This document shows, piece by piece, positions 17,513 through 34,001 of a stretch of 59,340 nt of DNA. Below the pieces are notes generated by a model. The model saw nothing but the letters and a program-made list of their open reading frames with translations, was not told the origin of the DNA and searched no databases. The stretch is from a virus (Duplodnaviria; Caudoviricetes), in the IMG/VR virus record IMGVR_UViG_3300035670_000235, positions 1 through 59,340 of that record; one strand, 5' to 3'. A program made the position numbers and the translations under genes. Positions within the stretch are counted from its first letter, which is position 1, and every line of letters begins with the position of its first letter.

Positions 17513-17847
17513 TGTCCTTCCAGAACATCACTGGGCTGAAGCTGGGGCAGGCCGCCATCACAACTAGCTACACCACGCTCTATACCGTCCCTACAGGCAC
17601 TCGCGCCTATGTCAAGGGCATGGATATCTGTAACACCACAGGCTCCTCTATTGGCCTCTACGTGTCTTTTGTGCCATCTGCTGGATCGGCAGGGGCTAGC
17701 AACGCGGTGTTCTATAATGCCGCCATTCCTGCTTACACCACGGTTCAGTGGTGCGGAACGCAGATCCTCAATGCCGGTGACACCATCCAAGTGAAGGCAT
17801 CAGCCACCGGCTGCACCATCACCGCTAGCGGTGGAGAAGCGCTGTGA
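17512..17847 (+). CDS. Small beta-rich virion protein (paralog of 19071..19406)
   Basis: Start MSFQNIT; LGQ...TTLYTVP...ICNT...LNAGD.I.V.AS. Confidence 0.6.
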   Translation: MSFQNITGLKLGQAAITTSYTTLYTVPTGTRAYVKGMDICNTTGSSIGLYVSFVPSAGSAGASNAVFYNAAIPAYTTVQWCGTQILNAGDTIQVKASATGCTITASGGEAL

Positions 17848-19409: not shown

Positions 19410-22400
19410 ATGCCAAACCAGAACATGCAGGGGCTTGCAGCGATATTGGCTGAGCAGGGTCGCAATGGCGACACCATGCTGATGCATGTCGCTCCGAGCG
19501 AAGTGGAGTACCTTGCTGGCTTTGGTGGCATCACCGAGAACCCGATGACGGGTTTGCCGGAGGCATTTAAGTTTAAGGATCTGCTGCCGTTTGTGGGTTC
19601 CGCCTTTCTCGGCCCTGCGTTCAAGGCAGTGGGATTCTCTCCGGGTGTGTCGAACTTTCTAGCCACCACTGCCTCGACTATGTTAGGCGGAGGTAGCCTT
19701 GAGAAAGGCATCATGTCTGGCTTGGTGTCATCCTCGATTGGTCGGCTTGGTAGGAACTTGGCGGATCTTGGCCCTAATGCCGCTGTAGATGCGGCAACAG
19801 GTCAGCCTATTGCAGACACTGGTTACAAGTTCGGCATCTTCAAAAAGCCAGAGACCGGCACATTCGGATCTCGCTATTCACAAGCGTTCCAGTCGCCGGA
19901 GTTTAATCCGGTTCAAATGGTGAAGGCTGCTGGCGAAGCGGGCTTGGATAACCTGCTTGAGCAAATCCAAAAACCCAGCGTCATGATTCCATTTACTGTC
20001 GGTGCTGGTGAACTTGGCCGAATCAAGGCCGAGGAAGATTACGCAAGGCAGTATCAAAACTTCCTTGAGGATCAAGCGGAGCGTCGCCGCAGAATCCGCG
20101 AACGTACCCCACAGATTTTACCGCCATCGAGTCCGTACTATCGTTCACCTGGCATGGCGCAGGGTGGGGCGGTACAGCGGAAGTTCGATGGCTATTCTTT
20201 TGACCTGAGTTTCCTTGACAACATGGGCAGCATGGATTTCCCGCAGCTGCAGGATTTCATGGCATCTCAGGCTGGGCAACAATATGCAGAGCCTAGCCCT
20301 GTCTCGATGGGCGTGATTGGTCAAGAACCAATTTATATGCCGGAACTTGTACAAGAAGTTGCGCAAGTGGATAACCGGGAGGCTGAGTTGGCTGCGGCAA
20401 GAGAGGCAGAGATGGCTGCCGCCCGGGAAGCCGAGTTGATTCGTCAGCGAGAACAAGCTGCTGCCGAGGCAGAGGCTGCTCGTGTTGCTGCTATGCAGCG
20501 TGAAGCGGAGATGCAAAGAGCCGCTGCTGAAGCGGCTGCTGCTGAGCGTGAACGTCAGCGCATGGAGGCAGACCTTGCTCGCAGGGCGGAGGAAGCTGCG
20601 CAGAGGGAAGCCGCTGCCCGCACTAGGGCGGCAGAGGAAGCTGCTCGCAGAGAGGCTGAGCGTATTGCTGCGGAACAGGCTCGCCTTCAGGCGGAGCGTC
20701 AAGCTGAAATGCAACGACAGCAGCAACTAGAAGCACAGCGTCAGGCAGAGCTGGCTCGCGCTGCTCAGCTAGCAGAGGAGGCTCGGCAGGCAGAGATTGC
20801 TCGTCAGCAGGAAGTGGCTAGACAGCAGGAAGCAGCCAGACTTGCCGCTGAGCAGGAAGCATCTAGGCAGGCTGAGTTTGCTAGGCAGCAAGAAGCCATG
20901 CGCGTTGAAGCGGAACGTCAACGCCAAATGGAAGAGGCTCGCCAAGCAGAGGTTATGCGTCAAGCAGAGCTTCAGCGACAAGCCGAAGCTGCCCGTCAAG
21001 CAGAACTGGTTGAGATTCAGCGAAGAGCGGATCTTCAACGACAAGCTGAAATGGAAGTGGCTAGGCAGCAAGAGGCTGCCAGAATTGCTGCTGAAGAAGA
21101 GGCGGCTCGTGCCGCACAGCCCACTGGCATTTTGACTGCCTTGCCGGAGCCTGAGCCATCACCTCCAACTGCGCTTAGCGAGCCTGCAGTTACGCAGTCT
21201 CAGCTTGAGAGGGACATTCTAAATAGAACTGGCCCGGGGTCACCGGAGGGCGAATTAGCCCCGTTGTTTGATGAAGCCCCTGTTGGCCCGGCTCCACTTA
21301 CTGATATCCCGGGATTCACGCCAGCTCCAGAAGGCCCATCTGGGCCGGGCAGTCTGCGTAGCCAAGAGATTCCGACTCCACCTCCCACGATTGTCGCCCC
21401 TACTTCAGCGCCAGCTCCAATTATTACTGATGAGGAAATCATCAATAGTTTGTTTGCACCGGGTGCAGATGTGCCGCAAAGCACGGGCATCAATGAGGAT
21501 GCGCTTTACAACCTTGGTGCTTTGTTGAGTCAACCGAAAGTTGGTGGCGCAGCGGATGTGTCTCGCAACTTTGCAGTTGGCCCAATTTCGGTTGATCCGA
21601 ATGTGGCTGGTACGGCGTTAAGCGGAGAGGCATTTGGTGTGGCGCCGCCGCAGCCGACTCCGCCTCCGCCTGCAACAGCGCAGGATCTCGGCATGAGCCA
21701 AGAGGAGTTGGATGCTATTGCTGCTAACTTCAAACCACTGTATTCGGATGTAGACACCAAGCAGATGGAGCAAGATTTCCTTGCCACCCTGCCGCCGGAG
21801 GAGAAGAAAGCTGTTGAGCAGATGAACGACTACAGTCAGTTCCTGCAAAGCAGATTCAATCAGATCCGAGAAGCACTGGCAGCCAAGGACTTCGAGAAAG
21901 CCTTTGACCTTGCCATCTCCGGTGACAAGCAGTACATCAAGGAATACAACCCGGGTGAGATGACGCAAGGCATCTTTACTGCCAACTTGATGCGTACATC
22001 TGACATCTCCCAGATGACTGGGCCGATGACAGAAGAAGATATTCGCGCCTATTACGAGGCGATGCCGGTTAATGAAGTGATCCCGCTTCTGTACCCGGGT
22101 GCGAAGGTGGGCGATTACATCTACACCTTGGACAAGAACAAGGCGATGCAGCAAGACATCGCTAACCTGAGAGCATCTGGTGGCACTGGGTTCCCGAGTG
22201 CGGCCAATCAGGTTGGCATGAAGTCAACCAAGCAGAACCTCACTATCCCGCTGATTGCGGCAGCACTGGCTTTCGCCGGTGTGCCGTTTGCACTGGGCGA
22301 TGCGATCGCTTCTAGCTCTATTGGCGCAAAGCTTGGCCTTGCTGGTCTTGGTAAAGCCGGAACGACTGCGCTTGGTTCGGCCATCATTGGCGCATCTGGC

Positions 22401-24203
22401 TCTGCCCTTCAGGGTGGTAGCTTTGAGGATGCACTGAAGGCTGGATTGATGGCTGCTGGCTTTAGCTTCATAGCTGAAACGGCGCTTGGCGAGATCAAAG
22501 AAGCCTACAACAACTGGGCATTCGACAATCTGCCTGCCGGTGAGCAAGTAGCCAATACTTTGGTCACCGTTGCTGATCCTAGCAACGTGATTGTGACGGC
22601 AGTAAATCAAGCCAACAACATTGCCCAGTCTGTTACCCAGACTGCTGCGCAACTTGCGGCTCAGCAGGTCTCTCAGCCTGAAGTCAAGGTCGAGACGACT
22701 CGCGATGTGACTCAACCCAGTGTTCCTGCGCCAGTTGCTCCTCCGCCTGCCCCGCCGGTTCAAACGCCGCTGGATCAAGTTACTGTCACGACGCAGCAGC
22801 AGCAGCCTCAGCAGCCGAACGTGCCTGTCGTGGTAGCGCCGCCTGCGCCTCCCGCTCCACCACCTCCTCCGGTCATCGAGACGCCGTTGGATCAAGTGAC
22901 GGTGACAACGCAGCAGCCGACCACGCAGCAGCCAAATGTTCCTGTTGTGGTTCCGCCTCCAGCGCCACCAGTTCGTGTTGAGCCGCCATTGGATCAGGTG
23001 ACCGTAACGACTAGCCCAACCACTCAAGATAGGGTGAATGTGCCGGTTGTTGTGCCGCCGCCTGCGCCTCCACCTGTTGTCCAGACACCGCTGGATCAGG
23101 TCACTGTCACAACCAGACCTGTAACTGATGACAGGCTTAATGTGCCGACTCCGGTTCAGCCACCGCCGACTCCGATCGAGTTGACTGCCCCCGTTGAAGA
23201 GATCGTGGTAAGCACAACAAAGCCACCCAAAGATGAACTCAATATCCCCGACCTGACGATCCCGCTAACAACACCTGTGACGCCACCGGTGGAGCCGGTT
23301 ATCAATACGCCAGATCTTTTGGATAAGCTGAAAGATAAAACCAAAGATGTCCTTGAGGACGTTGCTGTATCCCAGCTTATCAGTGCTTTAATTCCAAAGC
23401 CTAAAGCGCCAACTACATCTCAAACAACCACTAGACCGCCAACCACTCAGTACACAATACCCGAGGGTTTTGAAAGACGCTATGTGGCGGCACCGGGGGA
23501 TTACAGGCATGGATTCTTGCCAGAATTCCTGTTCTTCGAAAACCTCAATCCACCCGCTGTTGAGGTGGGATCTCCATCCACAACGCCAACTGATCCAACA
23601 AGACCAGACAGGCCAGATACTATCGACGAAAGAATCGAACCCAAAGCCGCAGGCGGGAAGATCAAGTCCTATTCCCCTCGTGGATATTTGGATCTGATCC
23701 AAGGCTACAGCGAGGGCGGTGAGATCGAGGATGAGGAGAGCATTGAAGAGGAAGTGGCTGAGTACTCGGAAGCCCCGATGACGGACGGCAGTCGAGGACT
23801 CATCCAACTTGCTCAGGCAGCAATTCTTGGTCAACTGCCAGAAGAACAAACCGATGACGTCATTCAGAAGTTCATCGATCTGCATGGCAATAAGGCATTC
23901 CGAGAACTTCGCGAGAAGACGCTGGAGTCCGTTGCGAATGGCAGCCGCAAGGAAGGTATGATCGAAGGTCATACTGGCGGTATGGACGATATGGTTGAAG
24001 GCGTGATCGGGAGTTCAGAGCGAGTGGCAGTGTCGCCGGGTGAGTTCATCATCCCCGCTGATGTGGTCAGCATGTTGGGTGATGGCAACAGTGACTCCGG
24101 CAGAACCAAGCTCGAACAGATGATGTCTCGCGTTAGGAAAGATAAGACGGGTTCAACCAAGCAGGCGAAACCCATCAACTCAGCCAAAGTTTTACCTGCT
24201 TAA
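19410..24203 (+). CDS. 1597-aa putative internal virion/ejection protein
   Basis: GR.GDTML.H...NP.TGLPEAF N-terminus; A/E/Q/R coiled coil; Pro-rich repeats; C-terminal DD.V...S.GEFIIPADVVS.LG.GNSD.G. Confidence 0.7.
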   Translation: MPNQNMQGLAAILAEQGRNGDTMLMHVAPSEVEYLAGFGGITENPMTGLPEAFKFKDLLPFVGSAFLGPAFKAVGFSPGVSNFLATTASTMLGGGSLEKGIMSGLVSSSIGRLGRNLADLGPNAAVDAATGQPIADTGYKFGIFKKPETGTFGSRYSQAFQSPEFNPVQMVKAAGEAGLDNLLEQIQKPSVMIPFTVGAGELGRIKAEEDYARQYQNFLEDQAERRRRIRERTPQILPPSSPYYRSPGMAQGGAVQRKFDGYSFDLSFLDNMGSMDFPQLQDFMASQAGQQYAEPSPVSMGVIGQEPIYMPELVQEVAQVDNREAELAAAREAEMAAAREAELIRQREQAAAEAEAARVAAMQREAEMQRAAAEAAAAERERQRMEADLARRAEEAAQREAAARTRAAEEAARREAERIAAEQARLQAERQAEMQRQQQLEAQRQAELARAAQLAEEARQAEIARQQEVARQQEAARLAAEQEASRQAEFARQQEAMRVEAERQRQMEEARQAEVMRQAELQRQAEAARQAELVEIQRRADLQRQAEMEVARQQEAARIAAEEEAARAAQPTGILTALPEPEPSPPTALSEPAVTQSQLERDILNRTGPGSPEGELAPLFDEAPVGPAPLTDIPGFTPAPEGPSGPGSLRSQEIPTPPPTIVAPTSAPAPIITDEEIINSLFAPGADVPQSTGINEDALYNLGALLSQPKVGGAADVSRNFAVGPISVDPNVAGTALSGEAFGVAPPQPTPPPPATAQDLGMSQEELDAIAANFKPLYSDVDTKQMEQDFLATLPPEEKKAVEQMNDYSQFLQSRFNQIREALAAKDFEKAFDLAISGDKQYIKEYNPGEMTQGIFTANLMRTSDISQMTGPMTEEDIRAYYEAMPVNEVIPLLYPGAKVGDYIYTLDKNKAMQQDIANLRASGGTGFPSAANQVGMKSTKQNLTIPLIAAALAFAGVPFALGDAIASSSIGAKLGLAGLGKAGTTALGSAIIGASGSALQGGSFEDALKAGLMAAGFSFIAETALGEIKEAYNNWAFDNLPAGEQVANTLVTVADPSNVIVTAVNQANNIAQSVTQTAAQLAAQQVSQPEVKVETTRDVTQPSVPAPVAPPPAPPVQTPLDQVTVTTQQQQPQQPNVPVVVAPPAPPAPPPPPVIETPLDQVTVTTQQPTTQQPNVPVVVPPPAPPVRVEPPLDQVTVTTSPTTQDRVNVPVVVPPPAPPPVVQTPLDQVTVTTRPVTDDRLNVPTPVQPPPTPIELTAPVEEIVVSTTKPPKDELNIPDLTIPLTTPVTPPVEPVINTPDLLDKLKDKTKDVLEDVAVSQLISALIPKPKAPTTSQTTTRPPTTQYTIPEGFERRYVAAPGDYRHGFLPEFLFFENLNPPAVEVGSPSTTPTDPTRPDRPDTIDERIEPKAAGGKIKSYSPRGYLDLIQGYSEGGEIEDEESIEEEVAEYSEAPMTDGSRGLIQLAQAAILGQLPEEQTDDVIQKFIDLHGNKAFRELREKTLESVANGSRKEGMIEGHTGGMDDMVEGVIGSSERVAVSPGEFIIPADVVSMLGDGNSDSGRTKLEQMMSRVRKDKTGSTKQAKPINSAKVLPA
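22680..23220 (+). repeat. Coding repeats PLDQVTVTT (x4) with Pro-rich linkers
   Basis: Units near 22767, 22884, 22986 and 23088, plus variants EVKVETT and EEIVVST. Confidence 0.85.
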
Positions 24204-24214
24204 GAGGATAGGTC

Positions 24215-25471
24215 ATGGCAGAAACAGCACCCACCAGTACCACGGTTTACCAACAGGCACTGCCTGAGTACGCCGCCCCTTACTTCGAGCGTCTCCTGCA
24301 ACGTGCAGAGACGGAAAGTCTGCAGGGGTATCAGCCGTACACAGGCGCAAGGCTCGCCGACTTCACTGCCGGAGAATTGGCAGCTCAGACCGGCATTGCC
24401 GGGCTTACAGCTCCCGCTCAGATTGCGGCAGCCACTGGTGTGGCGACGAGGGCAGCGGCAAGTCCAGCGGGTGTCCCGACTGCCTTTGATTACGCCAAGG
24501 GTTATCAGCCAGGAGCCTTTGCAGCGGCGTACACGCCGACCGATATCACCTCTGGCTACACCGCTGGAGTCGGCCCTGCGGCTTATGAGGCTGGAATATT
24601 GGGCGGCATGGGGCCATTCACCGCCGATGTTGCCGCTCGCTACATGACGCCCTACCAAGAGGCAGTCACTAGCGCAGCGGTACGAGAGCTGGAGAAGGGT
24701 GCTGAGCGAGCCAGAACCGGCATTGGTCAGGCGGCAGCACAGGCGGGTGGTCGCGGCGGATATCGAGAGGCTTTGGAGCGATCCGAGTTACAACGTAACA
24801 TCCTTGAGCAGATTGGCGACGTCACTGCCAAGGGCCGAGCCGCTGCCTATGAATCTGCCATGCAGCAATATGAGCGAGATCGTCAGGCTCAGTTGGCAGG
24901 TTTCCAGACCCAAGAGGCTGCGAGACAGGCGGCAGCAGCCAGTGGCTTGGCTGGCTTTCAAGCACAGGAAGCAGCGCGTCAGGCTCAAACTCAGTTTGGC
25001 ATGACCGCTCAGCAGGCTAGCCAGCAGCAGCGTCAGGCAGCGGCAGAGTTGGCCGCTCGTCAGGAAGCGGCTCGCGAGGCTGCCCGTCAGCAGCAGACGC
25101 AGTTTGGTTTGGCCGGATTGCAACAAGATCTGGCCGGACGCCAGCAGCAGTTGGCAGCCGCTCAGACCTTAGGTCAGCTGGGTCAGACCCAGCAGGCTTT
25201 GGATCTGGAGCGATTAGCCCAGCAGGAGTCGGTGGGTCAGCGGAAGCGAGCATTGGACCAAGCCTCGCTCGATGTCGGCTATCAGGACTTCCTGAACCAG
25301 ATGGGCTACACCCAAGGTCAGCTTGGGTTCTATTCCAACATCCTGCGCGGTGTTCCGGTGCAGCCGCAACAGACCGTCTCTACATTCCAACAGCAGCCCA
25401 GCCTGTTCCAGTCTGTACTGGGAGCCGGTATCGGCGGACTCGGACTTTACAATGCCTTGCGAGGGGGCTAA
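24215..25471 (+). CDS. Putative DNA ejection/pilot protein
   Basis: LPEYA.PY...YQPY.G.RLA.F; YM.PY; Gln/Ala-rich; Gly-rich hydrophobic C-terminus. Confidence 0.65.
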   Translation: MAETAPTSTTVYQQALPEYAAPYFERLLQRAETESLQGYQPYTGARLADFTAGELAAQTGIAGLTAPAQIAAATGVATRAAASPAGVPTAFDYAKGYQPGAFAAAYTPTDITSGYTAGVGPAAYEAGILGGMGPFTADVAARYMTPYQEAVTSAAVRELEKGAERARTGIGQAAAQAGGRGGYREALERSELQRNILEQIGDVTAKGRAAAYESAMQQYERDRQAQLAGFQTQEAARQAAAASGLAGFQAQEAARQAQTQFGMTAQQASQQQRQAAAELAARQEAAREAARQQQTQFGLAGLQQDLAGRQQQLAAAQTLGQLGQTQQALDLERLAQQESVGQRKRALDQASLDVGYQDFLNQMGYTQGQLGFYSNILRGVPVQPQQTVSTFQQQPSLFQSVLGAGIGGLGLYNALRGG

Positions 25472-25474
25472 TCC

Positions 25475-26890
25475 ATGAGCCTTATTGACCAGCAAAAAGA
25501 TCTGGAGAACTTCAGCGATCAAGCCCTCCTGCAAGAAGCCATGCAGCCGAGGCGGGGATACCCCCCGTTCTTGGTTGCCGCCGAGATTCAGCGCAGGCAG
25601 CAGGATCGCAGTCGGGTACAGCAGCAGACCATGGCAGCCCAACCAGAGGCTCCTCCGGTGGCCATGCAGCAGGCTGCTCAGTTTGCCAGCCAGATGGCTC
25701 CTATGGCGCAACCAGAGCCTGTTATGGGCGGTATGCCGCCAGAAGCAGGTATGGGCATGGCCGGTTCCATGGCCGGTTCTATGCCCTCTCCTGAGCCTGT
25801 AGGGATTATGGGTGCCGCCCCCGTGCAGGCCATGGCAGGCGGCGGGGAAGTGAAGCGGATGCAGGCGGGCATGAATGTGCCGGGTCAGCCGCTGAGTAAC
25901 CTGATTCGTCGAGGGCTTTCAGCCCTTAGCCCACGTCGCTCTGGCACCAGCCTGATGCGCGAGATCGCTCGGGTTGAAGCCGCTGGCGGTGATGCCTCTG
26001 CGCTTAAGGCTGAGCTTGCAAGGGTGCAGCGTGGTATTGCGCCAGAAGTTGGCGCTGCTCCAGTGGCTACACCGTCCTCTGCCCCCGGTATCGCGTCAGT
26101 GGCTGCGCCGAGCCAGATAGACATGGCGAGTGTGCTAAACGCACCGCAGGGTTCATATCTGCGTGGCGTCCCCGTTGGCGGAGCAACCGCGACCACAGAG
26201 AGGGTGGCCGCTCCCTCTGCCAAACCCGCAGCGGTCACGCCTCGCGCTGCCCCTGCCGGCATCGAGCAGCTGCAGGAAGTGGCGGTGACGGGCAAGCGTA
26301 CCGATCCCTACTACCTCGAAGCCGCTGGCGAGATGTACAAGTTCGCTCCGAGTCGCGAGGATTTCGAGCGTCGAAGCCGTGCCGAGACTCTGGTCGGACT
26401 GGGCGAGATCATTGGTGGCGCCACACAGCGCGGTGATATCGCCAAGGGATTGGCTGCCCTGACCCGTCAGCGTTTGGCTGGTGAGCGTGAGATGCAGCGA
26501 GAGGAGCGGGACTTCCGCATGGCGATGATGGGGCTTCGTGGTCAGGAGCGAGCAGAGACTCGCGCCGAGGCTCGTGAGACAGCCGCCATTGCTCGCGATG
26601 AGGCTCGCTTCAAAGCGGAAATGGATTACAAACTTCGGGATCTCGATATGCGTCGGGCAGCCCTTAGGGAAGAAACCGCTGCTCGCATACGGGCAGCAAA
26701 CAATGATGCAGAGCGTTTAGCGATTCAGCAGAGAGCGGCTGATGTTGAAGAGCAGTTGCTGGCAGCGCGTGAGGATCTCCTTAAGGCGCAGGCTGAATAC
26801 TATCGCGGCAAGGGCGTCAGCACGCTACCATTCGGTGGTCAGAACCAGTTCGCCACAGCACAGGATATCTCTGCTGCCCTCGGACAATAA
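25475..26890 (+). CDS. Putative internal virion/ejection protein
   Basis: MAGGGEV motif, low-complexity and coiled-coil segments, between pilot and giant protein. Confidence 0.6.
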   Translation: MSLIDQQKDLENFSDQALLQEAMQPRRGYPPFLVAAEIQRRQQDRSRVQQQTMAAQPEAPPVAMQQAAQFASQMAPMAQPEPVMGGMPPEAGMGMAGSMAGSMPSPEPVGIMGAAPVQAMAGGGEVKRMQAGMNVPGQPLSNLIRRGLSALSPRRSGTSLMREIARVEAAGGDASALKAELARVQRGIAPEVGAAPVATPSSAPGIASVAAPSQIDMASVLNAPQGSYLRGVPVGGATATTERVAAPSAKPAAVTPRAAPAGIEQLQEVAVTGKRTDPYYLEAAGEMYKFAPSREDFERRSRAETLVGLGEIIGGATQRGDIAKGLAALTRQRLAGEREMQREERDFRMAMMGLRGQERAETRAEARETAAIARDEARFKAEMDYKLRDLDMRRAALREETAARIRAANNDAERLAIQQRAADVEEQLLAAREDLLKAQAEYYRGKGVSTLPFGGQNQFATAQDISAALGQ

Positions 26891-26906: not shown

Positions 26907-29900
26907 ATGGCAGTTACGCCGACCCCGAAGAAGCGACTTCTTCTTCCGGACAATTCCTTTTTGGAGTTGCCGGATGTAGTCACTGAGGAAGATAAGTACC
27001 GCATCTCACTGGATCTCGCTCAGAGATTCCCAGATGAATATGGTTCACTGCTAGATCCATACCAGACATTTGCTGGCGGAGCAGCAGAGTTCTTCAAGGG
27101 TATCCCACGAGGCTTCGCCAGTTCACTGGTAGGCGCAGCACAAGGTGCTGTGGGCTTGGTAACGCCGGGGGTAGATACCGAGTTCGAATCTAATCTTGCC
27201 GCTGCGCAAAAATACCTTGAAGACGAAAGTGTGTTGGCTCCCGAGGAGCCGTACAAAGACTTCTTCGCCACCAAGTTAGGTGCAGGTCTTGGCTCTGTTG
27301 CCACCTACGCAATGCCGGGTGGTATCGCTAAAGCCCTTGGCGCCTCCGCCACTGGAGTGGCTGCGCGATCGGCTGGTCTTGGCATGGCAGTCACTGGTGG
27401 TGCTGGTGAGCAAGCACAGCGCATTCAGCAAGAGCGAGAACTCGGGAACGACATCACGACAGGCAGTGAAGCTGCTGCTCTCTTAGGTGGCGCAGGTGTC
27501 GGCGCCACCGAGATGATCCCGATCAATCGGTTATTTAGCAAGGTCACGCCAGAGACAGGCAGTGCGTTGCTGAATATCTTCTCGCGCATGGATAAGCGCA
27601 GCCCTCTGGCTGGCAGTGTATCGGACGACATCATCCGCCTCACCAAGGGTGCTGCCTCACAAGGCTTTGCAGAAGGTCTGCAGGAAGGCTTGGCTGGCAT
27701 GGCGCAGAACGTCGTCAGCAATGTGGCCTATGACGCTGACATCGAGGTTGGCGACTCCTTCCTCGATGACCTGATGGTGGGTGGCGGTGTCGGTGCGATC
27801 GCTGATGTGATCGTGGATGCCATGGGCGGTCGCCGTACCGTTGCCAATAAGATATACCGCGACAAGGAAGAGCAGCTTCGCAAGCAACGCATTGAGCGTT
27901 ACAACGCCGAGCAAGCAGAAGAATTGCGTAAGCAGCGCATGGACGAGATGGTTAAGCGTGGTCAGCCGCCAGAAGGTGTGCTGATGCTGCCGCCTCCTGC
28001 TGCCACACCCTCTGCCACGCCCACTATTGATGGCGTTTACACTGTATCGCCAGCTGGCAATCCTGATCGCTTCACTAGAGCGACGGTGTTCACATCGCCT
28101 GATGGTAGGGGCGGTCTTTCCACGATGGTGTACAGCCCCGAGAGCGAGGGCTACTTCGATATCACCGAAGAACTGCAGCGTGGCCGCAGCGTAGAAGATG
28201 CGGTGGCGATGGCAGTGGCTGGTGACTTTGGGTTCACCCGAGATCTGCCTGCATTGGGATCTGCTGCAATCAAGCAGAGCTTTAGTGTTGCCAAGGATGC
28301 CACCATCCCGAGCATCGATCCGAATCGAATTCAGGCTGAACTGGAAGGCGGTCGGTTCTCTGCTCCCAACGAAGACTCGTTCATCAAAGTACAGCCTCTG
28401 CCGAATGGTAGCTTCGGGCTAGTTGATGTCACTACAGGGATGCCTGTTGACGGTGGGATGTACTCCACGGTCAACGATGCTTTTGCCAGCTTGCGGCAAA
28501 TCAATGACCAGAACGCTGCAATCTCTGCAGCGAATGTCCTGAACTACACCGGCCTTATTAAAAACAATCCGGCTTACCGACTCGCTGCATCGTTGCGTTC
28601 GCCCAAGAACCGCTTGATCCAGAAGTCGGTGGTGGCTGCGTATCTGCCTAAGGATAAGCGCAAAGATCTCAAGGATTTCTATTCGCCTGAAGAAGCCAAG
28701 AAGCTGCTTGGGCCGAAAGACTTCGACGAGATGATGCAGGGCTTTGGTCAGATCACAGAGACCAATGATCTTCTGCGTAAGTACGTGGCTGATCCTGTTG
28801 GTATCAACCCCAACAAGCGAACCATTACATCCTCTGCCCTGACTAAACTCGGCAAGGATAAGAACCTCAAGATCGACATCAAGGACAAGGCGTTCAAGGA
28901 TTACGCCAAGTACTGGACGGGTGCTGAGAACTGGGCAGATATGTCCAATGGTCAGCGCCTGTACCTGATGACCCGCATTGCCAACAACCCGGCGATGCCA
29001 GAGATGATCAAGTTCCCGAATCTGTTTCAGCGGCAGTACAGAAGGCCGCAGTTTGAAGCAGTGCTGGGCAAGCTCGGTCAGGCACAGAAGGATGGCAAGA
29101 CAGCGGCCATCTCTGTTTCGGATATCCAAAAGGAAACGGGATTATCTGCCCCTGCCGCCAAGCAGATGTTTAGCGACCTGATATTCAGTGGTCGCGTCAA
29201 GCCTGTTGCTCCCGGCAAGATCCAGCTGATCCGCTCTGAGCAGGACTATCAGGCAGATAAAACTGCCAAGGCTGACGGCCTTATCCAGAACGAGACGGTC
29301 GAGCAGACTGCCTCTCGTCTGCGTGGCGCTGGATTCACTGACGAATCTGTCAAGCAAGTTGAGAAGCAAGTACAGCAGCAAACCGTTGAGCCGAAGTCCC
29401 CGACACCGGCTGTCAAGGCTGAGATCGATGCTCGCGAAACGGCTGCTGTCGCACAAGGCGCTAACCCGCAGAAGGAACGCACCGCCTCTAACTTCGACAA
29501 GATCATCGCTGATGCGCTTAACCGCTACGGCATTGCCAAGTTCGTCAAGCATCAGCTTGAGACCGACGCTGCCAAGACTCGCAAGCTGCCTAATGGACAG
29601 ATTGTGATGCGGGTGGGCTACTTCTCACCGCTGAAGAAGATGATCACCGTGAATGTGGGTGATCAGATTAATGACCCCAACATCTCCATCGAGGAGATTG
29701 TGCGTCGCATCAGCGGCACGGTTGACCATGAGGTTATTCACGCCATGCGTGAAGCCGATATGTTCACCGAGAAGGAGTGGAACACGCTCTCCAACTTCGT
29801 CAGGACTGCCAAAATCGACAAGGCATTCCTTGATCAGGCTGGTGACAAGAGCCTTATGGCTGTTGGCGGCAAGGGCAAACAGATCACCACGATGCTCGAT

Positions 29901-32900
29901 GAGGTTCGCATCCGCTATGCGGGTAAGAATCTCAATGAGATGCAACTGGTTGAGGAGGCAGTGGCTGAGAGCTTCCGCCTGTGGAGACAGCATGGTGGTA
30001 AGTTTGCCGCTGGTAAACCCGCCTCGCTCTTCCAGCGTATCCTCAACTTCATCACCTCCTTTGCCACAGCATGGAAAGGATCAGGCGCTACCTCGGCAGA
30101 TCAGATCTTCTCTGCGATTTCCGATGGTGAGATCGGACAACGCACACCGGGACTCTCGGTATTCAACCCAAGTGCAGATGCCACTATCCGCACCCTCAAC
30201 TTCGCTGATCAGGAACTCTCTAAGGTCAAGAAGACTATCCGCAAGGGTGATGTCGCTCGTGGCCCTGTTAAGTTTAATCCGGAGTCGTTTGATAAGTCTG
30301 CCGACAAAGCCGGCGAGGAACTGGCGGGTTACTTCATAGACGCTCGCGGTGTTGCTGGCCTTAAAAAAGAACGCATCAACTCCCTGCTCAATGAATATGG
30401 TTATACCTACCCGATATCTAAGGCGAAGGCATATCTCACTTACCTCACGCCAGATCAATTCATCAATGCGACCACTCCAGAGTCTTATAGAAAATACATC
30501 AAGCAGGAATCAAGACCGCTAAATGCTCAGGAGCTTGCCGAACAGCGGCAGCCTATCTTCTTAAAGATGAGAAGGACGCCGTTTAATCCTGATGGCACGC
30601 CAGAGATAAGCAAGCCCAATTCAAAGACATTGGTTGGATCGGTCGTATGGGAGATCAGCGGACACGAGGGTCGCCACAGAATGCAGGCTCTTAAAGATGC
30701 AGGCATCAAGGAAGTCCCAGTTGTTATTCAGTTGAGCGAGGATGGCAGAGACTTTAGATCAAAGCCAGATAACGCCATTGATATAACAAGCAACACCGTT
30801 TTCATCCAAGGTCAAGACTTTTCTTCTGCTACAGAGACAAGCAGAGGGGATGACTTTTTAATCTCCAATGTGATGACCCCGATCAGCTACTCCAATGCAA
30901 AGGCTCTTGAGCAGAGGTTTGTAAACTCAGAACTCGATGTCAGCTTTATGGAGATGCCACTCTCTGAGGCCGACAACAAGCGAGTCGATGACTACCTAGA
31001 GTCCCATGTCGGCAACACACCAAAAGGTTACATCCCGAAGGTGAATCCGAATGCGCCTAGGGCTGCCATTGCTGCCGCGGTTAAGTTCGAGCAGGATGGC
31101 AAGGAAGAACCGTTCCCGGATGTGGGACGGCAGTTCATGCTCAATGAGATTGCTGAAGAGCCGATTGAGAATGACGTCATTGCGGATTATGTCCGTCGCT
31201 ATGGCAAGATCAAGCCGGAGGAGATGACGTTCGGCCAGAAGGCGATCTTCATCCTAGAGAGTTGGAAGGAAGGCGGATTCAAGTCCGCCTTCGATGACTT
31301 CTCCCGCGTATTCCGCAAGGCAGTGATCGATCGATACAACGAATTCCGTCGTCAGGAAGCCGAACTCATCGGCACTGAGAACGAAGGGATGCTGTTGGCC
31401 GAGACTTCCGCCAGTGCTGCCTTGGGTCAGCTTGATCGCGCTAGGGGTTGGCTGGCATCTGCCTTCAACTACGGCGGTGTCAAGTGGGTCAGGGGTGCAA
31501 ACATCGTCACTGCCGATCCGAGTGCGTTTGAGAATGACAAGCTCGCTGGTTACATCGATGTCGATGAATCCACGCCGGGCTTACTCAACATCCTAGGCCC
31601 ACTGGTCAACGGCTCTGTACCTAACGGTATGGGGCAGTTCAAGACCTACTCCACCCTGAAGCGCGTACAAGGCTTTAGGAACCGCGCTAAGCAGGCTCAG
31701 TTCGAGCTGAGCAACATGCCGAAGGAGACGCAGGACGCTGCCACAGAAGCCCGTCGTGCCGCCCTGCGGGACATCATCATGGCTGCCAACAATGTGCGTC
31801 TGGTGGACAACCCATCTGATGCGCAGATCAGTCAGTTGATCGAGGAGATCGACACCAACTTCCCGCAAGTCACCGAAGCGTACAACGGATATCAGAACTG
31901 GAACAAAACGCTGATCCAGTTTGGACGTGACACCGGCATCCTGACAGAGGAGCTGGCCGAGCGTTGGAAGCAGTGGGGCGACTACTTCCCGTTCTATCAA
32001 GAAATGGAAGAGGCCGTCATGCGGGATCAGGGATTCCGCAGCAAGTCCTCGATGACCAAGGTGGACTTCTTCACCAAAGCCTTGTCTGAGAATGCCAAGG
32101 ATCTAGAGGATGCTGATCCGTTTGAGATGATCTCCAAGAACGCCTTTGGGATTATCCAAGCGGGACTGAAGAACGTGGCGGCTGGTCGTATCCTGCGTAA
32201 CTCCGAGATCGTGGGAGAAGCCAGGAAGATCACCGGCGCGAACCCCGCCAAGCAAGCCTCTCAGCTTCGCAAGCGTGGCAGCTACATCAAGACCGTGTAC
32301 GAGGATGGCATTGAGGTCTACTACGAGATCGCTGATCCTCTGTTGCATGAGTCGATGATGAACTACGGTGATCCGACTCTGAACACCATGACCAAGATCT
32401 TGGCAATGCCTGCCAACGTCCTTCGTGAAATGGTGACCAGAGATCCGGGCTTCGTGATGGCCAACATGCTTCGCGATACCCTCTCGTCGTTCGTCACCAG
32501 CGGCACGGGCTATGTCCCTGTTATCGATACCTTCAAGCAATTCGGCATGGGTGAGATCGACACCCTGCTGAAAACGGGTATCGTCGGCGGCTACGATATG
32601 TCTGCTGATCCGCAGGATCTGAAGCAGTACATCAAGAAGCAGTACCGCAAGCAGGGTATCGACATGCGCAATCATGCGATCACCAGCACTAACGCGGTCA
32701 CTAGAGTGTGGGACTGGTTAGGCGACATGAGTACCCGCTCTGACGCCGCCACTCGCATGGCTGTCTACAACGCTGTACTGAAGCGCACAGGCAGTGAGGC
32801 TGCCGCAAGACAGGCTGCCATCGAAGTCCTCAACTTCAGCCGTCGTGGTGGTAACCCGATATGGAAGGTGGTCACTGCCTCTGTCCCGTTCTTGAACGCC

Positions 32901-34001
32901 CGTATACAGGGTCTCGATGTGATCTACCGCTCACTCGGCGGCAAGTACTCACCCTATGAAGGGCTTGAGGATCGCGCTGTCACGCAGAAGCGAGCCTTGA
33001 TGCGCGGTGCGATGCTGGCCGCCACCACGGGCGTGTACTTCATGCTGATGCAGGACAACGAGGAGTACAAGAAAACTCGTCGTGAGGTTCGCGATGACAA
33101 CTGGTTGATCCCTGCGCCTGTCCTTGGCGACAAGGTCATGCTGAAGATTCCGATCCCCTTCGAAATCGGCATGCTCTTCAAGGCAGTGCCAGAGACCTTC
33201 TTAAACTTTATGTTCGGGGATATGGATGCTCGTGGGTTCCGCGATAGTCTTGTCCGACAGGTGAACAACTCCACCAACATCGATGTCACTGGCTTCCAGA
33301 TTGTGAAGCCGCTGGTGGATGTGTGGCGCAACAAGGATAGCTTCACCGGCAAGGAAATCGTACCTTACTGGGTGGACAAGGGAACTGAGGCTGCAGAACA
33401 ATACGATGAGCGTACTACCGAAGTGTCTAAGTTCTTAGGTAAAGCGCTGAACATCAGCCCAATGAAACTCGACTATCTGGTGGGTGGCTATGGTGGTTCA
33501 CTCGGCCTGTCGCTGTTCTTAACGACCGACAAGATCATCCGAGAGGCATCTGGCGATAAGACTGCCGGAACTCGCGCTGACTACACCGATGTGAATAATC
33601 TCCCTGTTGTTCGCCGCTTCTTCTACAACGCTGGCACGGCAGGCAGTCGGCAGCAACAGGAGTTCTATGAACTTCGCGATGAAGTAGATAAGACCGTGGC
33701 CACGCTTAATAAGATCCAGAAGCGAGGCGACATAGCCGAGTACTACGCTTATGCGAATACTCGCCGGGGATTGCTGGAAATCAAGAGTGAAGTTCTGGCG
33801 GTAGAGCGTTACCTGAAGCGGTATCGACAGACCCGCGAGGACATCATTCGCAGCGATCTGCCTGCCGATGTAAAGCGCGATTACCTAGAACAGCTAGATG
33901 CTGATCGAGATATGCGCATGACCATTGTCCCGGTAATGCGAGAGCGGGGCGACATCCCATCAAGGGCTGCCTCTGCAATAGCCGACGCCTTTATCGGCTA
34001 G
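26907..34001 (+). CDS. 2364-aa large polyvalent (ejected) protein with zincin-like HExxH, ParB-like insert and LPD38-like C-terminus
   Basis: DHEVIHA...EEAVAE; GHEGRHRMQAL...EVPV; NFSRRG...VPFLNARIQG...IP.PFEIG...SP.KLDYL..GY.G. Confidence 0.75.
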   Translation: MAVTPTPKKRLLLPDNSFLELPDVVTEEDKYRISLDLAQRFPDEYGSLLDPYQTFAGGAAEFFKGIPRGFASSLVGAAQGAVGLVTPGVDTEFESNLAAAQKYLEDESVLAPEEPYKDFFATKLGAGLGSVATYAMPGGIAKALGASATGVAARSAGLGMAVTGGAGEQAQRIQQERELGNDITTGSEAAALLGGAGVGATEMIPINRLFSKVTPETGSALLNIFSRMDKRSPLAGSVSDDIIRLTKGAASQGFAEGLQEGLAGMAQNVVSNVAYDADIEVGDSFLDDLMVGGGVGAIADVIVDAMGGRRTVANKIYRDKEEQLRKQRIERYNAEQAEELRKQRMDEMVKRGQPPEGVLMLPPPAATPSATPTIDGVYTVSPAGNPDRFTRATVFTSPDGRGGLSTMVYSPESEGYFDITEELQRGRSVEDAVAMAVAGDFGFTRDLPALGSAAIKQSFSVAKDATIPSIDPNRIQAELEGGRFSAPNEDSFIKVQPLPNGSFGLVDVTTGMPVDGGMYSTVNDAFASLRQINDQNAAISAANVLNYTGLIKNNPAYRLAASLRSPKNRLIQKSVVAAYLPKDKRKDLKDFYSPEEAKKLLGPKDFDEMMQGFGQITETNDLLRKYVADPVGINPNKRTITSSALTKLGKDKNLKIDIKDKAFKDYAKYWTGAENWADMSNGQRLYLMTRIANNPAMPEMIKFPNLFQRQYRRPQFEAVLGKLGQAQKDGKTAAISVSDIQKETGLSAPAAKQMFSDLIFSGRVKPVAPGKIQLIRSEQDYQADKTAKADGLIQNETVEQTASRLRGAGFTDESVKQVEKQVQQQTVEPKSPTPAVKAEIDARETAAVAQGANPQKERTASNFDKIIADALNRYGIAKFVKHQLETDAAKTRKLPNGQIVMRVGYFSPLKKMITVNVGDQINDPNISIEEIVRRISGTVDHEVIHAMREADMFTEKEWNTLSNFVRTAKIDKAFLDQAGDKSLMAVGGKGKQITTMLDEVRIRYAGKNLNEMQLVEEAVAESFRLWRQHGGKFAAGKPASLFQRILNFITSFATAWKGSGATSADQIFSAISDGEIGQRTPGLSVFNPSADATIRTLNFADQELSKVKKTIRKGDVARGPVKFNPESFDKSADKAGEELAGYFIDARGVAGLKKERINSLLNEYGYTYPISKAKAYLTYLTPDQFINATTPESYRKYIKQESRPLNAQELAEQRQPIFLKMRRTPFNPDGTPEISKPNSKTLVGSVVWEISGHEGRHRMQALKDAGIKEVPVVIQLSEDGRDFRSKPDNAIDITSNTVFIQGQDFSSATETSRGDDFLISNVMTPISYSNAKALEQRFVNSELDVSFMEMPLSEADNKRVDDYLESHVGNTPKGYIPKVNPNAPRAAIAAAVKFEQDGKEEPFPDVGRQFMLNEIAEEPIENDVIADYVRRYGKIKPEEMTFGQKAIFILESWKEGGFKSAFDDFSRVFRKAVIDRYNEFRRQEAELIGTENEGMLLAETSASAALGQLDRARGWLASAFNYGGVKWVRGANIVTADPSAFENDKLAGYIDVDESTPGLLNILGPLVNGSVPNGMGQFKTYSTLKRVQGFRNRAKQAQFELSNMPKETQDAATEARRAALRDIIMAANNVRLVDNPSDAQISQLIEEIDTNFPQVTEAYNGYQNWNKTLIQFGRDTGILTEELAERWKQWGDYFPFYQEMEEAVMRDQGFRSKSSMTKVDFFTKALSENAKDLEDADPFEMISKNAFGIIQAGLKNVAAGRILRNSEIVGEARKITGANPAKQASQLRKRGSYIKTVYEDGIEVYYEIADPLLHESMMNYGDPTLNTMTKILAMPANVLREMVTRDPGFVMANMLRDTLSSFVTSGTGYVPVIDTFKQFGMGEIDTLLKTGIVGGYDMSADPQDLKQYIKKQYRKQGIDMRNHAITSTNAVTRVWDWLGDMSTRSDAATRMAVYNAVLKRTGSEAAARQAAIEVLNFSRRGGNPIWKVVTASVPFLNARIQGLDVIYRSLGGKYSPYEGLEDRAVTQKRALMRGAMLAATTGVYFMLMQDNEEYKKTRREVRDDNWLIPAPVLGDKVMLKIPIPFEIGMLFKAVPETFLNFMFGDMDARGFRDSLVRQVNNSTNIDVTGFQIVKPLVDVWRNKDSFTGKEIVPYWVDKGTEAAEQYDERTTEVSKFLGKALNISPMKLDYLVGGYGGSLGLSLFLTTDKIIREASGDKTAGTRADYTDVNNLPVVRRFFYNAGTAGSRQQQEFYELRDEVDKTVATLNKIQKRGDIAEYYAYANTRRGLLEIKSEVLAVERYLKRYRQTREDIIRSDLPADVKRDYLEQLDADRDMRMTIVPVMRERGDIPSRAASAIADAFIG

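What the first reader, a model, noticed from the sequence alone, without database searches (positions are those of the whole stretch)
22560..23230. Tandem TonB-box-like motifs in a predicted ejected virion protein
Seen: the 1597-aa protein carries LDQVTVTT four times, plus SNVIVTA, EVKVETT and VEEIVVST, separated by Pro-rich linkers. Established: TonB boxes of TonB-dependent receptors (FhuA DTITVTA, BtuB DTLVVTA) and of group B colicins have this acidic-x-hydrophobic-x-V-T shape and are pulled by TonB. Inference: the phage ejects a protein displaying several TonB boxes so that host TonB-ExbBD pulls it, or the DNA conduit, through the periplasm. That would be a colicin-like energising mechanism for a phage ejectosome, which I do not know to have been described.
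Basis: partly seen in the sequence, partly recalled or inferred. Interest (0 to 1): 0.85.

Follow-up and report, generated by a model that had tools for sequence, protein, structure and literature searches.

The report
TonB-box-like repeats in phage protein
A giant protein of an uncultured phage, probably shot into the host with the DNA, carries a conserved row of short peptides that look like the handles the bacterial TonB motor pulls on, so the phage may borrow host energy for entry, though no binding has been shown.

Summary
Gene 19410-24203 (+) encodes a 1597-aa protein with PLDQVTVTT four times, plus VEEIVVST, in a Pro-rich stretch. The four copies differ at 35 of 54 pairwise codon comparisons, all synonymous, while the 8-aa spacers are mostly nonsynonymous. 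So the peptide itself is under selection.

The window is a complete 59-kb phage genome. The gene lies in the structural module, next to a 'DNA ejection protein' family gene and a 2364-aa LPD38 protein.

I built a TonB-box matrix without supervision from 57 TonB-dependent transporter (TBDT) N-termini. With it, the homologues carry canonical boxes such as LDEVVVTGSR, LEEVVVTGTR and LQEVTVTGSR:
- 21 hits of 12 bits or more, against 0.24 expected from shuffles.
- 2 hits in 109 kaa of other phage ORFs.
- 0 hits in 85 kaa of the wider family.
- 34 of 36 core hits fall in one inter-domain region.

The window's own LDQVTVTT is a weak match at 6.8 bits, though the genuine BtuB box scores 6.3. The exact heptapeptide also occurs in MurA-like enzymes. 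SNVIVTA and EVKVETT do not score.

Best reading (about 0.5): tandem TonB-box mimics in an ejected protein, colicin- or pyocin-like. Virion location, TonB binding and the host are untested. I found no description in print.

The parts
19410..24203 (+). Gene for the 1597-aa protein (P0001), putative internal/ejected virion protein
   Evidence: ORF list and translation. No Pfam or PHROG family. Full-length homologues in 7 viral and 11 metagenome loci.
19458..19568 (+). Conserved N-terminal motif GRNGDTMLMHVAPSE...NPMTGLPEAF (aa 17-53)
   Evidence: Nearly invariant columns in alignment A2. Also present in distant proteins P0014-P0020 and in the DSL-LC04 positional homologue.
19581..19637 (+). Hydrophobic segment 1 (aa 58-76)
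   Evidence: Kyte-Doolittle 19-aa window of 1.4 or more.
20373..21197 (+). Ala/Glu/Arg/Gln-rich, probably helical insert (about aa 322-596), absent from several homologues
   Evidence: Composition per 100 aa. P0002, P0003 and P0005 lack it.
22233..22322 (+). Hydrophobic segment 2 (aa 942-971), followed by a Gly/Ala-rich stretch
   Evidence: Kyte-Doolittle window. Conserved in homologues.
22716..23279 (+). Pro-rich stretch (about aa 1103-1290) that carries the repeats; predicted without regular structure
   Evidence: 25-32 Pro per 100 aa. AlphaFold2 on a 10-sequence alignment gave mean pLDDT 42 and no helix or strand in model residues 84-295.
22767..22793 (+). PLDQVTVTT copy 1
22884..22910 (+). 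PLDQVTVTT copy 2
22986..23012 (+). PLDQVTVTT copy 3
23088..23114 (+). PLDQVTVTT copy 4. It aligns with LDEVVVTG(SR) of L008 and LEEVTVTG(AR) of L005.
23193..23216 (+). VEEIVVST, the best TonB-box match in the window protein (core matrix 14.0 bits)
22818..23156 (+). Second conserved element of each repeat unit, NVPVVV or NVPTPV. It sits exactly 8 residues after each box (22818-22835, 22935-22952, 23037-23054, 23139-23156).
   Evidence: 19 synonymous and 6 nonsynonymous differences of 36 codon comparisons. Spacing and weak likeness to the first plug strand of some TBDTs.
22581..22601 (+). SNVIVTA, in a conserved non-Pro-rich segment; not a TonB-box match
   Evidence: 1.1 bits. Conserved as NTVIVSA or SNVIVTA in homologues.
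22680..22700 (+). EVKVETT; not a TonB-box match
   Evidence: -9.8 bits
23772..24200 (+). Widely conserved C-terminal domain (aa 1455-1597; GGMDD...VAVSPGEFIIPADVV...LGDGN)
   Evidence: 6870 representative proteins at E of 0.001 or less. Alignment A1. Three-helix bundle plus low-confidence parts. No fold match.
24215..25471 (+). Neighbouring gene, 418 aa, PHROG 4287 'DNA ejection protein'
   Evidence: E 4.4e-10
25475..26890 (+). Neighbouring gene, 471 aa, with its own box-like LQEVAVTGKR (26270-26293)
26907..34001 (+). Neighbouring gene, 2364 aa, with Pfam LPD38 (large polyvalent protein-associated domain)
   Evidence: E 5.4e-33

Best explanation
The 1597-aa protein is most likely an internal virion protein of a short-tailed-type phage that is expelled into the host envelope at infection.

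A Pro-rich, unstructured stretch of about 200 aa lies between the protein's second hydrophobic segment and its conserved C-terminal domain. That stretch displays a tandem array of short linear motifs of the TonB-box type: four PLDQVTVTT copies and one VEEIVVST.

Proposed mechanism: once in the periplasm, these strands are captured by the C-terminal domain of host TonB through beta-strand pairing. TonB-dependent transporters and group B colicins, pyocin S2 and klebicin C are captured this way. The ExbBD/proton-motive-force motor would then pull on, or anchor, the ejected protein and with it the DNA conduit.

Shown here:
- the motif exists and is under purifying selection;
- it is homologous to canonical TBDT-type boxes in relatives;
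- those boxes are statistically enriched;
- they have a fixed place in the architecture;
- no structure is predicted around them.

Inferred, not shown: presence in the virion and ejection, exposure in the periplasm, binding to TonB, energy coupling, and a host that has TonB.
For: 1. Selection on the peptide. The PLDQVTVTT codons show 35 synonymous and 0 nonsynonymous differences of 54 comparisons. The spacer shows 5 synonymous and 37 nonsynonymous of 48.

2. Unsupervised motif finding. On 57 TBDT N-termini from three genomes, it recovered [ILV]EE[IV]xVT[GA][ST]R[IR], 13-18 aa before the Plug domain.

3. Enrichment with the 11-wide matrix. The 22 close-family sequences have 21 hits of 12 bits or more, in 14 of 22 proteins. 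Controls: 0.24 expected from 100-aa block shuffles (maximum 2 in 200 shuffles), 2 hits in 109,320 aa of other phage ORFs, and 0 in 85,319 aa of the wider C-terminal-domain family. The 8-wide core matrix gives the same picture.

4. Fixed position. 34 of 36 core hits of 10 bits or more lie in the 330 aa before the HGFLPEF anchor, which is 25% of the length. This holds in 19 of 20 non-redundant proteins, with 25 distinct 8-mers.

5. Boxes persist where linkers change. In L008 and P0006 the linkers are not Pro-rich, yet the boxes are LDEVVVTGSR, LAEVIVTGSK and LEEVVVTGTR. Window copy 4 aligns with them.

6. Specificity of the consensus. In genome G002, 22 of 23 occurrences of the DNA pattern for EE[IVM]xVT[GA] lie just upstream of a Plug match. 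Across 40 genomes there were 72 hits, against 16 for the reversed pattern. Four of four inspected ORFs were Plug and/or barrel proteins.

7. Calibration. The genuine BtuB box scores 6.3 and FhuA 14.3. The window's LDQVTVTT scores 6.8 and VEEIVVST 14.0.

8. Genomic context. The genome is a complete phage with terminase, portal and head genes. The gene sits between virion structural genes and a PHROG 'DNA ejection protein' gene plus an LPD38 giant protein. It has two hydrophobic segments, as T7-type ejection proteins do (passages of PMC8954989).

9. Precedent. TonB boxes occur in unstructured segments of imported proteins that pass through non-TBDT channels (klebicin C, colicins 5 and 10), and pyocin S2 has a Pro-rich region (passages of PMC11658791).

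10. No structure around the boxes. AlphaFold2 gives no secondary structure and pLDDT 42 for the repeat stretch.
Against: - The window's own main motif is a weak match: LDQVTVTT scores 6.8 bits on the core matrix (7th percentile of TBDT boxes) and 2.2-8.9 bits on the 11-wide matrix. It ends in T, not A or G, and lacks the [ST]R tail.
- The matrix comes from only three genomes and is biased towards EE boxes.
- The exact peptide [LF]DQVTVT occurred 17 times in 401 gammaproteobacterial genomes. Fourteen were in MurA-like ORFs (3 of 3 tested were Pfam EPSP_synthase) and none in a TBDT. The string is therefore an ordinary beta-strand elsewhere.
- SNVIVTA and EVKVETT do not score.
- Some family members have no hit of 10 bits or more. 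L004 has only LDQVTV[RT]T and VEEQVTVTT-type copies below that mark. In P0011 and P0012 the only hits lie in a coiled-coil repeat.
- The wider family with the same C-terminal domain has no boxes. Neither do the positional homologues in DSL-LC04 and HMO-2011. The boxes are therefore an add-on, not the core function.
- Every characterised TonB box I know of is N-terminal and single. These are internal and tandem.
- The host is unknown. The only lead is an in-silico prediction of Pseudomonadota for the relative DSL-LC04.
- Virion location is inferred from gene order only.
- Family sequences are related to each other, so hit counts are not independent events.
Confidence: 0.5

Rival explanations
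1. Structural spacer. The Pro-rich stretch is an extended, polyproline-type ruler that lets the ejected protein span the periplasm. The short beta-strands (LDQVTVTT, NVPVVV) pair with each other between subunits to build or stiffen the conduit. TonB plays no part, and the likeness to TonB boxes comes from shared beta-strand chemistry.
For: - The repeat number varies among close relatives: 3 to 7 units, as expected of a length-setting spacer.
- A second strand-like element, NVPVVV, is also conserved in each unit.
- LDQVTVTG is an ordinary internal strand in MurA-like enzymes.
- The window's own copies score low on the TBDT matrix.
Against: - It does not explain why relatives with quite different, non-Pro linkers keep 10-residue strings identical in pattern to TBDT boxes, including the G[ST][RK] tail (LDEVVVTGSR, LEEVVVTGTR).
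- It does not explain why such strings are otherwise nearly confined to TBDT N-termini (22 of 23 in G002).
- AlphaFold2 predicts no strand pairing in the region, though at low confidence.
Confidence: 0.25
2. TonB decoy. The boxes do bind TonB, but in order to occupy it rather than to be pulled. An array of boxes delivered at infection would block TonB-dependent uptake. That could exclude competing phages and bacteriocins that need TonB, or shut down transporters.
For: Same sequence evidence as the best explanation. Several copies per protein would raise the capacity to titrate TonB.
Against: Only a few copies of an internal protein enter each cell. I recall, with no call behind it, that TonB is present in hundreds of copies in E. 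coli, so titration looks inefficient. There is no evidence that the protein is made early in infection.
Confidence: 0.08
3. Another periplasmic partner. The strands dock by beta-augmentation on a different host protein, for example a Tol-Pal component, a POTRA domain or a lipoprotein carrier.
For: Short amphipathic strands in disordered linkers are generic beta-augmentation ligands. The window variant differs from the commonest TBDT consensus.
Against: The homologues' motifs match the TBDT consensus over 10-11 positions. I know of no other periplasmic recognition motif of this form (recalled, not searched).
Confidence: 0.08
4. Chance or low-complexity artefact. A Val/Thr/Pro-rich repeat merely happens to resemble a TonB box.
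For: The region is compositionally biased. A single 7-8-mer match at 6.8 bits would not be significant on its own.
Against: - Block shuffles that keep local composition give 0.24 hits against 21 observed.
- The motif codons show 0 nonsynonymous differences of 54 comparisons beside a freely changing spacer.
- There are 25 distinct high-scoring variants, all in one region.
Confidence: 0.03

Closest known systems
TonB boxes of TonB-dependent transporters (FhuA, BtuB and the 57 environmental TBDTs sampled here)
   Same: Same sequence pattern: hydrophobic, acidic, acidic or polar, I/V, x, V, T/S, G/A/T, often followed by [ST][RK]. Homologues reach the median TBDT score (LDEVVVTG 19.6 bits, LEEVVVTG 22.0). 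The boxes lie in a segment without predicted structure.
   Different: No Plug domain or beta-barrel follows (no Pfam or NCBIfam hit even at E up to 10). The boxes are internal, tandem (up to 7 copies) and in a phage protein. The window variant ends in T and has Gln at the third position.
TonB-dependent bacteriocins (group B colicins, pyocin S2, klebicin C, colicins 5 and 10)
   Same: A foreign protein that must cross the envelope shows a TonB box in an unstructured, partly Pro-rich segment and is pulled by TonB. Klebicin C and colicins 5 and 10 do so after threading through a channel that is not a TBDT (passages of PMC11658791; PMC5692591 seen only in a search listing).
   Different: Bacteriocins carry one N-terminal box and have receptor-binding and killing domains. 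Here there are several internal boxes, no such domains, and entry would be through the phage tail.
Ejection (internal virion) proteins of short-tailed phages (T7 gp14/gp15/gp16, P22 E-proteins)
   Same: A large protein encoded late in the structural module beside an ejection-protein family gene. It has hydrophobic segments. Such proteins are expected to leave the capsid unfolded and rebuild a trans-envelope conduit (passages of PMC8954989).
   Different: No sequence family in common. No lytic transglycosylase or other known domain. In the passages I read, none of the described ejection proteins is reported to carry TonB boxes or to use TonB.
TonB-dependent phages T1 and phi80
   Same: Phage infection that needs TonB and the proton-motive force (passages of PMC11658791).
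   Different: In those phages the dependence runs through the receptor FhuA and irreversible adsorption. No TonB box on a phage protein is described there.
Tail tape measure protein (the label of the positional homologue in phage DSL-LC04, OR003939)
   Same: A long protein with hydrophobic and low-complexity parts, at a comparable place in the gene order.
   Different: The window protein hits no tape-measure PHROG. Among the 19 large ORFs I scanned, none hit a tail tube or sheath family. The basis of the DSL-LC04 label may be in that paper's Table S2, which I could not see.

Membership tests
TonB box (linear motif recognised by TonB) | Sequence matches the TonB-box consensus of real TBDTs | tested here: met
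   Met for the protein family: 21 hits of 12 bits or more against 0.24 expected. Met for the window's VEEIVVST (14.0 bits). Borderline for LDQVTVTT (6.8 bits, against 6.3 for the genuine BtuB box).
TonB box (linear motif recognised by TonB) | Lies in an accessible, unstructured segment exposed to the periplasm | tested here: inconclusive
   AlphaFold2 gives no secondary structure and pLDDT 42, and the region is Pro-rich. Low confidence is not proof of disorder. Periplasmic exposure is inferred.
TonB box (linear motif recognised by TonB) | Binds the TonB C-terminal domain by beta-strand pairing | not testable with these tools
   Needs the true host's TonB and a binding assay. See Tried and rejected for the one modelling job.
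TonB box (linear motif recognised by TonB) | Function depends on TonB-ExbB-ExbD and the proton-motive force; host has TonB | not testable with these tools
   The host is unknown and the phage is uncultured. The phage itself encodes no TonB_C domain.
TonB-dependent transporter | Plug domain and 22-stranded barrel after the box | tested here: not met
   No Pfam or NCBIfam family for the protein or the repeat stretch, even at E up to 10.
Podovirus ejection / internal virion proteins | Encoded in the structural module next to other ejection genes | tested here: met
   Upstream: virion structural PHROGs 3287 and 1645. Downstream: PHROG 4287 'DNA ejection protein' and the LPD38 giant protein. Same order in DSL-LC04.
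Podovirus ejection / internal virion proteins | Sequence or fold homology to a characterised ejection protein | tested here: not met
   No PHROG or Pfam hit. No tblastn hit in 50,697 phage records for the whole protein. The C-terminal domain model has no PDB match at E of 0.001 or less.
Podovirus ejection / internal virion proteins | Present in virions and released at infection | not testable with these tools
   Needs virion mass spectrometry of a cultured relative.
Group B colicin / S-type pyocin | Single N-terminal TonB box, then receptor-binding and cytotoxic domains | tested here: not met
   The boxes are at aa 1121-1269 of 1597 and are tandem. No bacteriocin domain found.
Tail tape measure protein | Match to tape-measure families; tail tube and chaperone genes nearby | tested here: not met
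   No tape-measure PHROG for P0001. None of the 19 scanned ORFs hit tube or sheath families.

The most novel reading that the evidence does not exclude
The phage taps the host's proton-motive force through TonB for genome delivery. The row of TonB boxes, spaced 34-39 residues apart in an unfolded Pro-rich thread, would let successive TonB strokes reel the ejected protein hand over hand out of the tail and across the periplasm, and with it the conduit or the DNA end. This is a colicin-style import engine built into a virion.

Two further observations hint that TonB-box mimicry could be a wider, unrecognised device of phage DNA-delivery proteins:
- a second protein of the same module carries LQEVAVTGKR;
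- unrelated viral contigs carry LDEVVVTG[HQK][KR]K-type strings in a tape-measure protein and other large proteins.
Probability: 0.25. Interest if true: 0.9.

Novelty: new variant of a known kind. Interest (0 to 1): 0.72.

Why it matters
How short-tailed phages get proteins and DNA across the periplasm, and where the energy comes from, is still open. The ejection-protein review I read in passages mentions no host motor.

TonB-box mimicry is established for bacteriocins but, as far as my five searches show, not for any phage protein. If the boxes bind TonB, three things follow:
- a phage would be using the Ton motor from the periplasmic side, independent of a TBDT receptor;
- tonB/exbBD would become host factors for entry;
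- a simple sequence signature would allow a search for the same device in tape-measure and ejection proteins of other phages.

Limits: the phage and its relatives are uncultured, so a direct infection test needs a cultured relative or a reconstituted binding assay.

Tried and rejected
- **Complex model.** Complex prediction with TONB_ECOLI residues 150-239 and P0001 residues 1112-1175 (collected) returned 'no answer' (score 0.01, controls not run). E. coli TonB is only a stand-in for an unknown host.
- **Profile libraries.** Pfam and NCBIfam scans of the repeat stretch and four homologues at E up to 10 gave no TBDT family. Profile HMMs do not pick up a 10-residue motif.
- **Exact-peptide searches.** The window peptide led to MurA-like enzymes, not TBDTs. 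DEVVVTG in 61 genomes gave only 2 hits, both in non-TBDT ORFs. Exact 7-mers are too rare to be useful.
- **Second block of the repeat.** N[VI]PVVV sits 8 residues after the box, the same spacing as [DE][VT]P[VI] in 10 of 57 TBDTs. The score is weak: mean 0.10 bits, and 8.7% of shuffles reach it. I kept it as a remark only.
- **Host inference.** The genome-contig scan with the C-terminal domain found only 9 MAG contigs of mixed and implausible taxa (Chloroflexi, an archaeon, Maricaulis, Rickettsiales and others). These are probably mis-binned phage contigs, so no host was inferred.
- **C-terminal domain fold.** The AlphaFold2 model (pLDDT 67.6) had no PDB match at E of 0.001 or less.
- **Known phages.** tblastn of the whole protein against 50,697 phage records found no match. 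The C-terminal domain matched 3 cyanophage records weakly.
- **More relatives.** A second viral scan with an alignment returned the same 7 loci.
- **Tool errors and closures.** 'of' needs a G handle.
Full report
**What the window is.** The window is a whole virus record of 59,340 bp with direct terminal repeats. It encodes:
- a large terminase (54420-55904), a portal (56357-58834) and a major head protein (2454-3362);
- a primase-helicase;
- tail proteins (11313-13067) and two virion structural proteins (15432-17261, 17844-19061).

After these come four large genes in a row:
- the 1597-aa gene of the finding (19410-24203);
- a 418-aa gene of PHROG 4287, 'DNA ejection protein';
- a 471-aa gene;
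- a 2364-aa gene with Pfam LPD38.

The nearest deposited phages by the 405-aa structural protein are the metagenome-assembled DSL-LC04 (57% identity) and Puniceispirillum phage HMO-2011 (45%). DSL-LC04 has the same gene order. Its authors place it in no known family and predict a Pseudomonadota host in silico (passages of PMC10611076; their supplementary tables were not visible to me). That HMO-2011 is a podovirus is my recollection, not a call. None of the 19 large ORFs I scanned hit a tape-measure, tube or sheath family.

**The observation.** It is correct. All four LDQVTVTT copies are preceded by Pro. In 54 pairwise codon comparisons of PLDQVTVTT, 35 differ, and every difference is synonymous. 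The 8-residue spacer that follows has 5 synonymous and 37 nonsynonymous differences of 48. A second element, NVPVVV, has 19 synonymous and 6 nonsynonymous of 36. Tandem Repeats Finder does not detect the DNA repeat. This is an old duplication in which the nine-residue peptide is held fixed. The minus-strand ORF 22224-23027 overlaps the region. I take it for a by-product of the Pro-rich coding frame.

**The protein and its relatives.**
- P0001 has no Pfam or PHROG family and no tblastn match in 50,697 phage records.
- Full-length relatives exist in 7 viral contigs, in 19 protein clusters and in 11 metagenome loci.
- Its last 140 aa or so form a domain found in 6870 representative proteins. The model is a three-helix bundle followed by low-confidence parts, with no PDB match.
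- The architecture is: a conserved N-terminal motif; a hydrophobic segment (aa 58-76); a variable Ala/Glu/Arg/Gln-rich insert; a second hydrophobic segment (aa 942-971); the Pro-rich repeat stretch; the C-terminal domain.

**Are the repeats TonB-box-like?** I built the yardstick from real data rather than from memory.
- A Plug-domain search in genomes reached through MAG loci gave 59 matches in three genomes.
- I read the 57 distinct N-termini.
- An unsupervised one-site-per-sequence search found [ILV]-E-E-[IV]-x-V-T-[GA]-[ST]-R-[IR], 13-18 residues before the Plug start.

Results with the 11-wide matrix on the 22 close-family sequences (P0001-P0013, P0021, P0022 and the ORFs of L003-L009; some are near-duplicates):
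- 21 hits of 12 bits or more, in 14 of 22 proteins;
- 0.24 expected from 200 block shuffles that keep local composition (maximum 2);
- 2 hits in 335 other phage ORFs (109,320 aa);
- 0 hits in 143 proteins (85,319 aa) of the wider C-terminal-domain family.

The 8-wide core matrix agrees. After removing near-duplicates (29 sequences down to 22, of which 20 have the C-terminal anchor):
- 34 of 36 core hits of 10 bits or more fall in the 330 aa before the anchor, which is 25% of the length;
- this holds in 19 of 20 proteins;
- the hits are 25 distinct 8-mers.

Examples are LDEVVVTGSR and LAEVIVTGSK (L008), LEEVVVTGTR and LEEVTITAQR (P0006), LEEVTVTGAR (L005) and LQEVTVTGSR (P0013). In L008 and P0006 the linkers are not Pro-rich, so the box is the conserved unit, not the linker. 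In the alignment, window copy 4 sits in the same columns as these boxes.

**Specificity of the consensus.**
- In genome G002, for which I hold the full Plug list, 22 of 23 occurrences of the DNA pattern for EE[IVM]xVT[GA] lie directly upstream of a Plug match.
- Over 40 genomes (the unpublished G043 left out) there were 72 hits, against 16 for the reversed pattern.
- Among 27 loci from that pattern search that I inspected (29 including the two DEVVVTG loci), 11 looked like TBDT N-termini. The rest were short frames or other ORFs. Four of four that I tested had Plug and/or barrel domains.

**Results against the reading.**
- The window's own LDQVTVTT scores only 6.8 bits on the core matrix. SNVIVTA scores 1.1 and EVKVETT -9.8.
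- For calibration, the genuine boxes read from E. coli K-12 score 6.3 (BtuB) and 14.3 (FhuA) on the same matrix. The matrix, from three EE-rich genomes, undervalues D-x-type boxes.
- The exact string [LF]DQVTVT in 401 gammaproteobacterial genomes occurred 17 times. Fourteen were in MurA-like ORFs (3 of 3 tested were Pfam EPSP_synthase), three were in other ORFs, and none were in a TBDT.
- L004 has no hit of 10 bits or more. In P0011 and P0012 the only hits lie in a coiled-coil repeat.
- The positional homologues in DSL-LC04 and HMO-2011 have no boxes.
- The family members are related, so counts are not independent. The host is unknown.

**Structure.** AlphaFold2 on a 10-sequence alignment of aa 1006-1347 gave mean pLDDT 42, and no helix or strand across the repeat stretch. 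This fits a disordered thread but does not prove one.

**Mechanism.** The best-supported reading treats the boxes as linear TonB-box mimics shown in the periplasm by an ejected protein. TonB would capture them as it captures the boxes of colicins, pyocin S2 and klebicin C. Klebicin C is captured after threading through TolC, which is not a TBDT (passages of PMC11658791). T7-type ejection proteins leave the capsid unfolded and rebuild a conduit in the envelope (passages of PMC8954989). An unfolded Pro-rich thread with several handles would suit capture by TonB. Every step after 'the motif is there and is selected' is inference. The rivals are a structural spacer, a TonB decoy, another partner, and chance. 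They are set out in their own section.

**Novelty.** Five full-text searches found no paper that joins 'TonB box' with phage ejection, virion, tape-measure or delivery terms. The 24 papers using 'TonB box motif' or 'putative TonB box' concern transporters and bacteriocins.

**Verdict.** The identification as TonB-box-like is well supported for the family and moderately supported for the window's own copies. The mechanism is plausible, has precedent in bacteriocins and is untested. I rate it as a new variant of a known kind, with interest 0.72.

Noticed in passing
window 25475-26890 (box at 26270-26293): The 471-aa protein two genes downstream carries IEQLQEVAVTGKRTD (core 10.3 bits, 11-wide 13.6 bits) after a long Ala/Pro-rich stretch. 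It is kept in 4 of 5 orthologues (L003, L004, L007, L008) and precisely deleted in the most distant one, L009.
   Followed up: partly
window 22818-23156: Each repeat unit has N[VI]P[VT]xV exactly 8 residues after the box. Ten of 57 TBDTs show the same spacing between the box and the first plug strand ([DE][VT]P[VI]). The score is weak, with 8.7% of shuffles reaching it. This may hint that the unit was copied from a transporter N-terminus.
   Followed up: partly
L194:1934-5317 (-), L150:965-3175 (+), L197:4399-6888 (-), L191:4578-11405 (+), L190:5606-7618 (-), L161:6899-9220 (-): A scan of viral contigs for DEVVVTG found box-like strings with a hydrophobic residue before and basic residues after. 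They occur in a tape-measure-family protein (NELDEVVVTGHRKDK), in a 737-830-aa family (V[IV]DEVVVTGQMP), in a 2276-aa protein with two boxes, and in others. L213 is a truncated member of the window's family.
   Followed up: partly
window 23772-24200: The C-terminal domain (GGMDD...VAVSPGE[FY]I[IV]PADVV...LGDGN) occurs in 6870 representative proteins of very different lengths. It has no Pfam family and no PDB fold match. A related GEF[VI].PA motif sits at the N-terminus of HMO-2011 gp49 and the C-terminus of the DSL-LC04 homologue.
   Followed up: partly
window 20373-21197: An Ala/Glu/Arg/Gln-rich insert of about 275 aa, probably a long helix, is present in the window, P0008, P0011 and P0013 but absent from P0002, P0003 and P0005.
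   Followed up: no
window 26907-34001: A 2364-aa protein with Pfam LPD38 (large polyvalent protein-associated domain). It matches PHROGs 9854 and 18222, both of unknown function.
   Followed up: no
L001 16132-18411 (OR003939): The DSL-LC04 gene annotated 'tail tape measure protein' is the positional homologue. It shares the N-terminal GxDTMLAHITPxE motif and a C-terminal GEFVFTAKAV motif, and has no TonB-box-like strings. The label looks doubtful.
   Followed up: partly
L007 5980-8214: In this relative the homologous ORF stops after 738 aa, although the tblastn match runs to 9641. It could be a frameshift, a split gene or an assembly error.
   Followed up: no
L096-L109, L112 (bacterial genomes): [LF]DQVTVTG is a conserved internal strand of MurA-like (EPSP_synthase family) enzymes in Gammaproteobacteria.
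   Followed up: yes
L010-L018: Contigs carrying the C-terminal domain are binned into MAGs of Chloroflexi, an archaeon, Maricaulis, Rickettsiales and others. They are probably phage contigs mis-binned into those MAGs.
   Followed up: no
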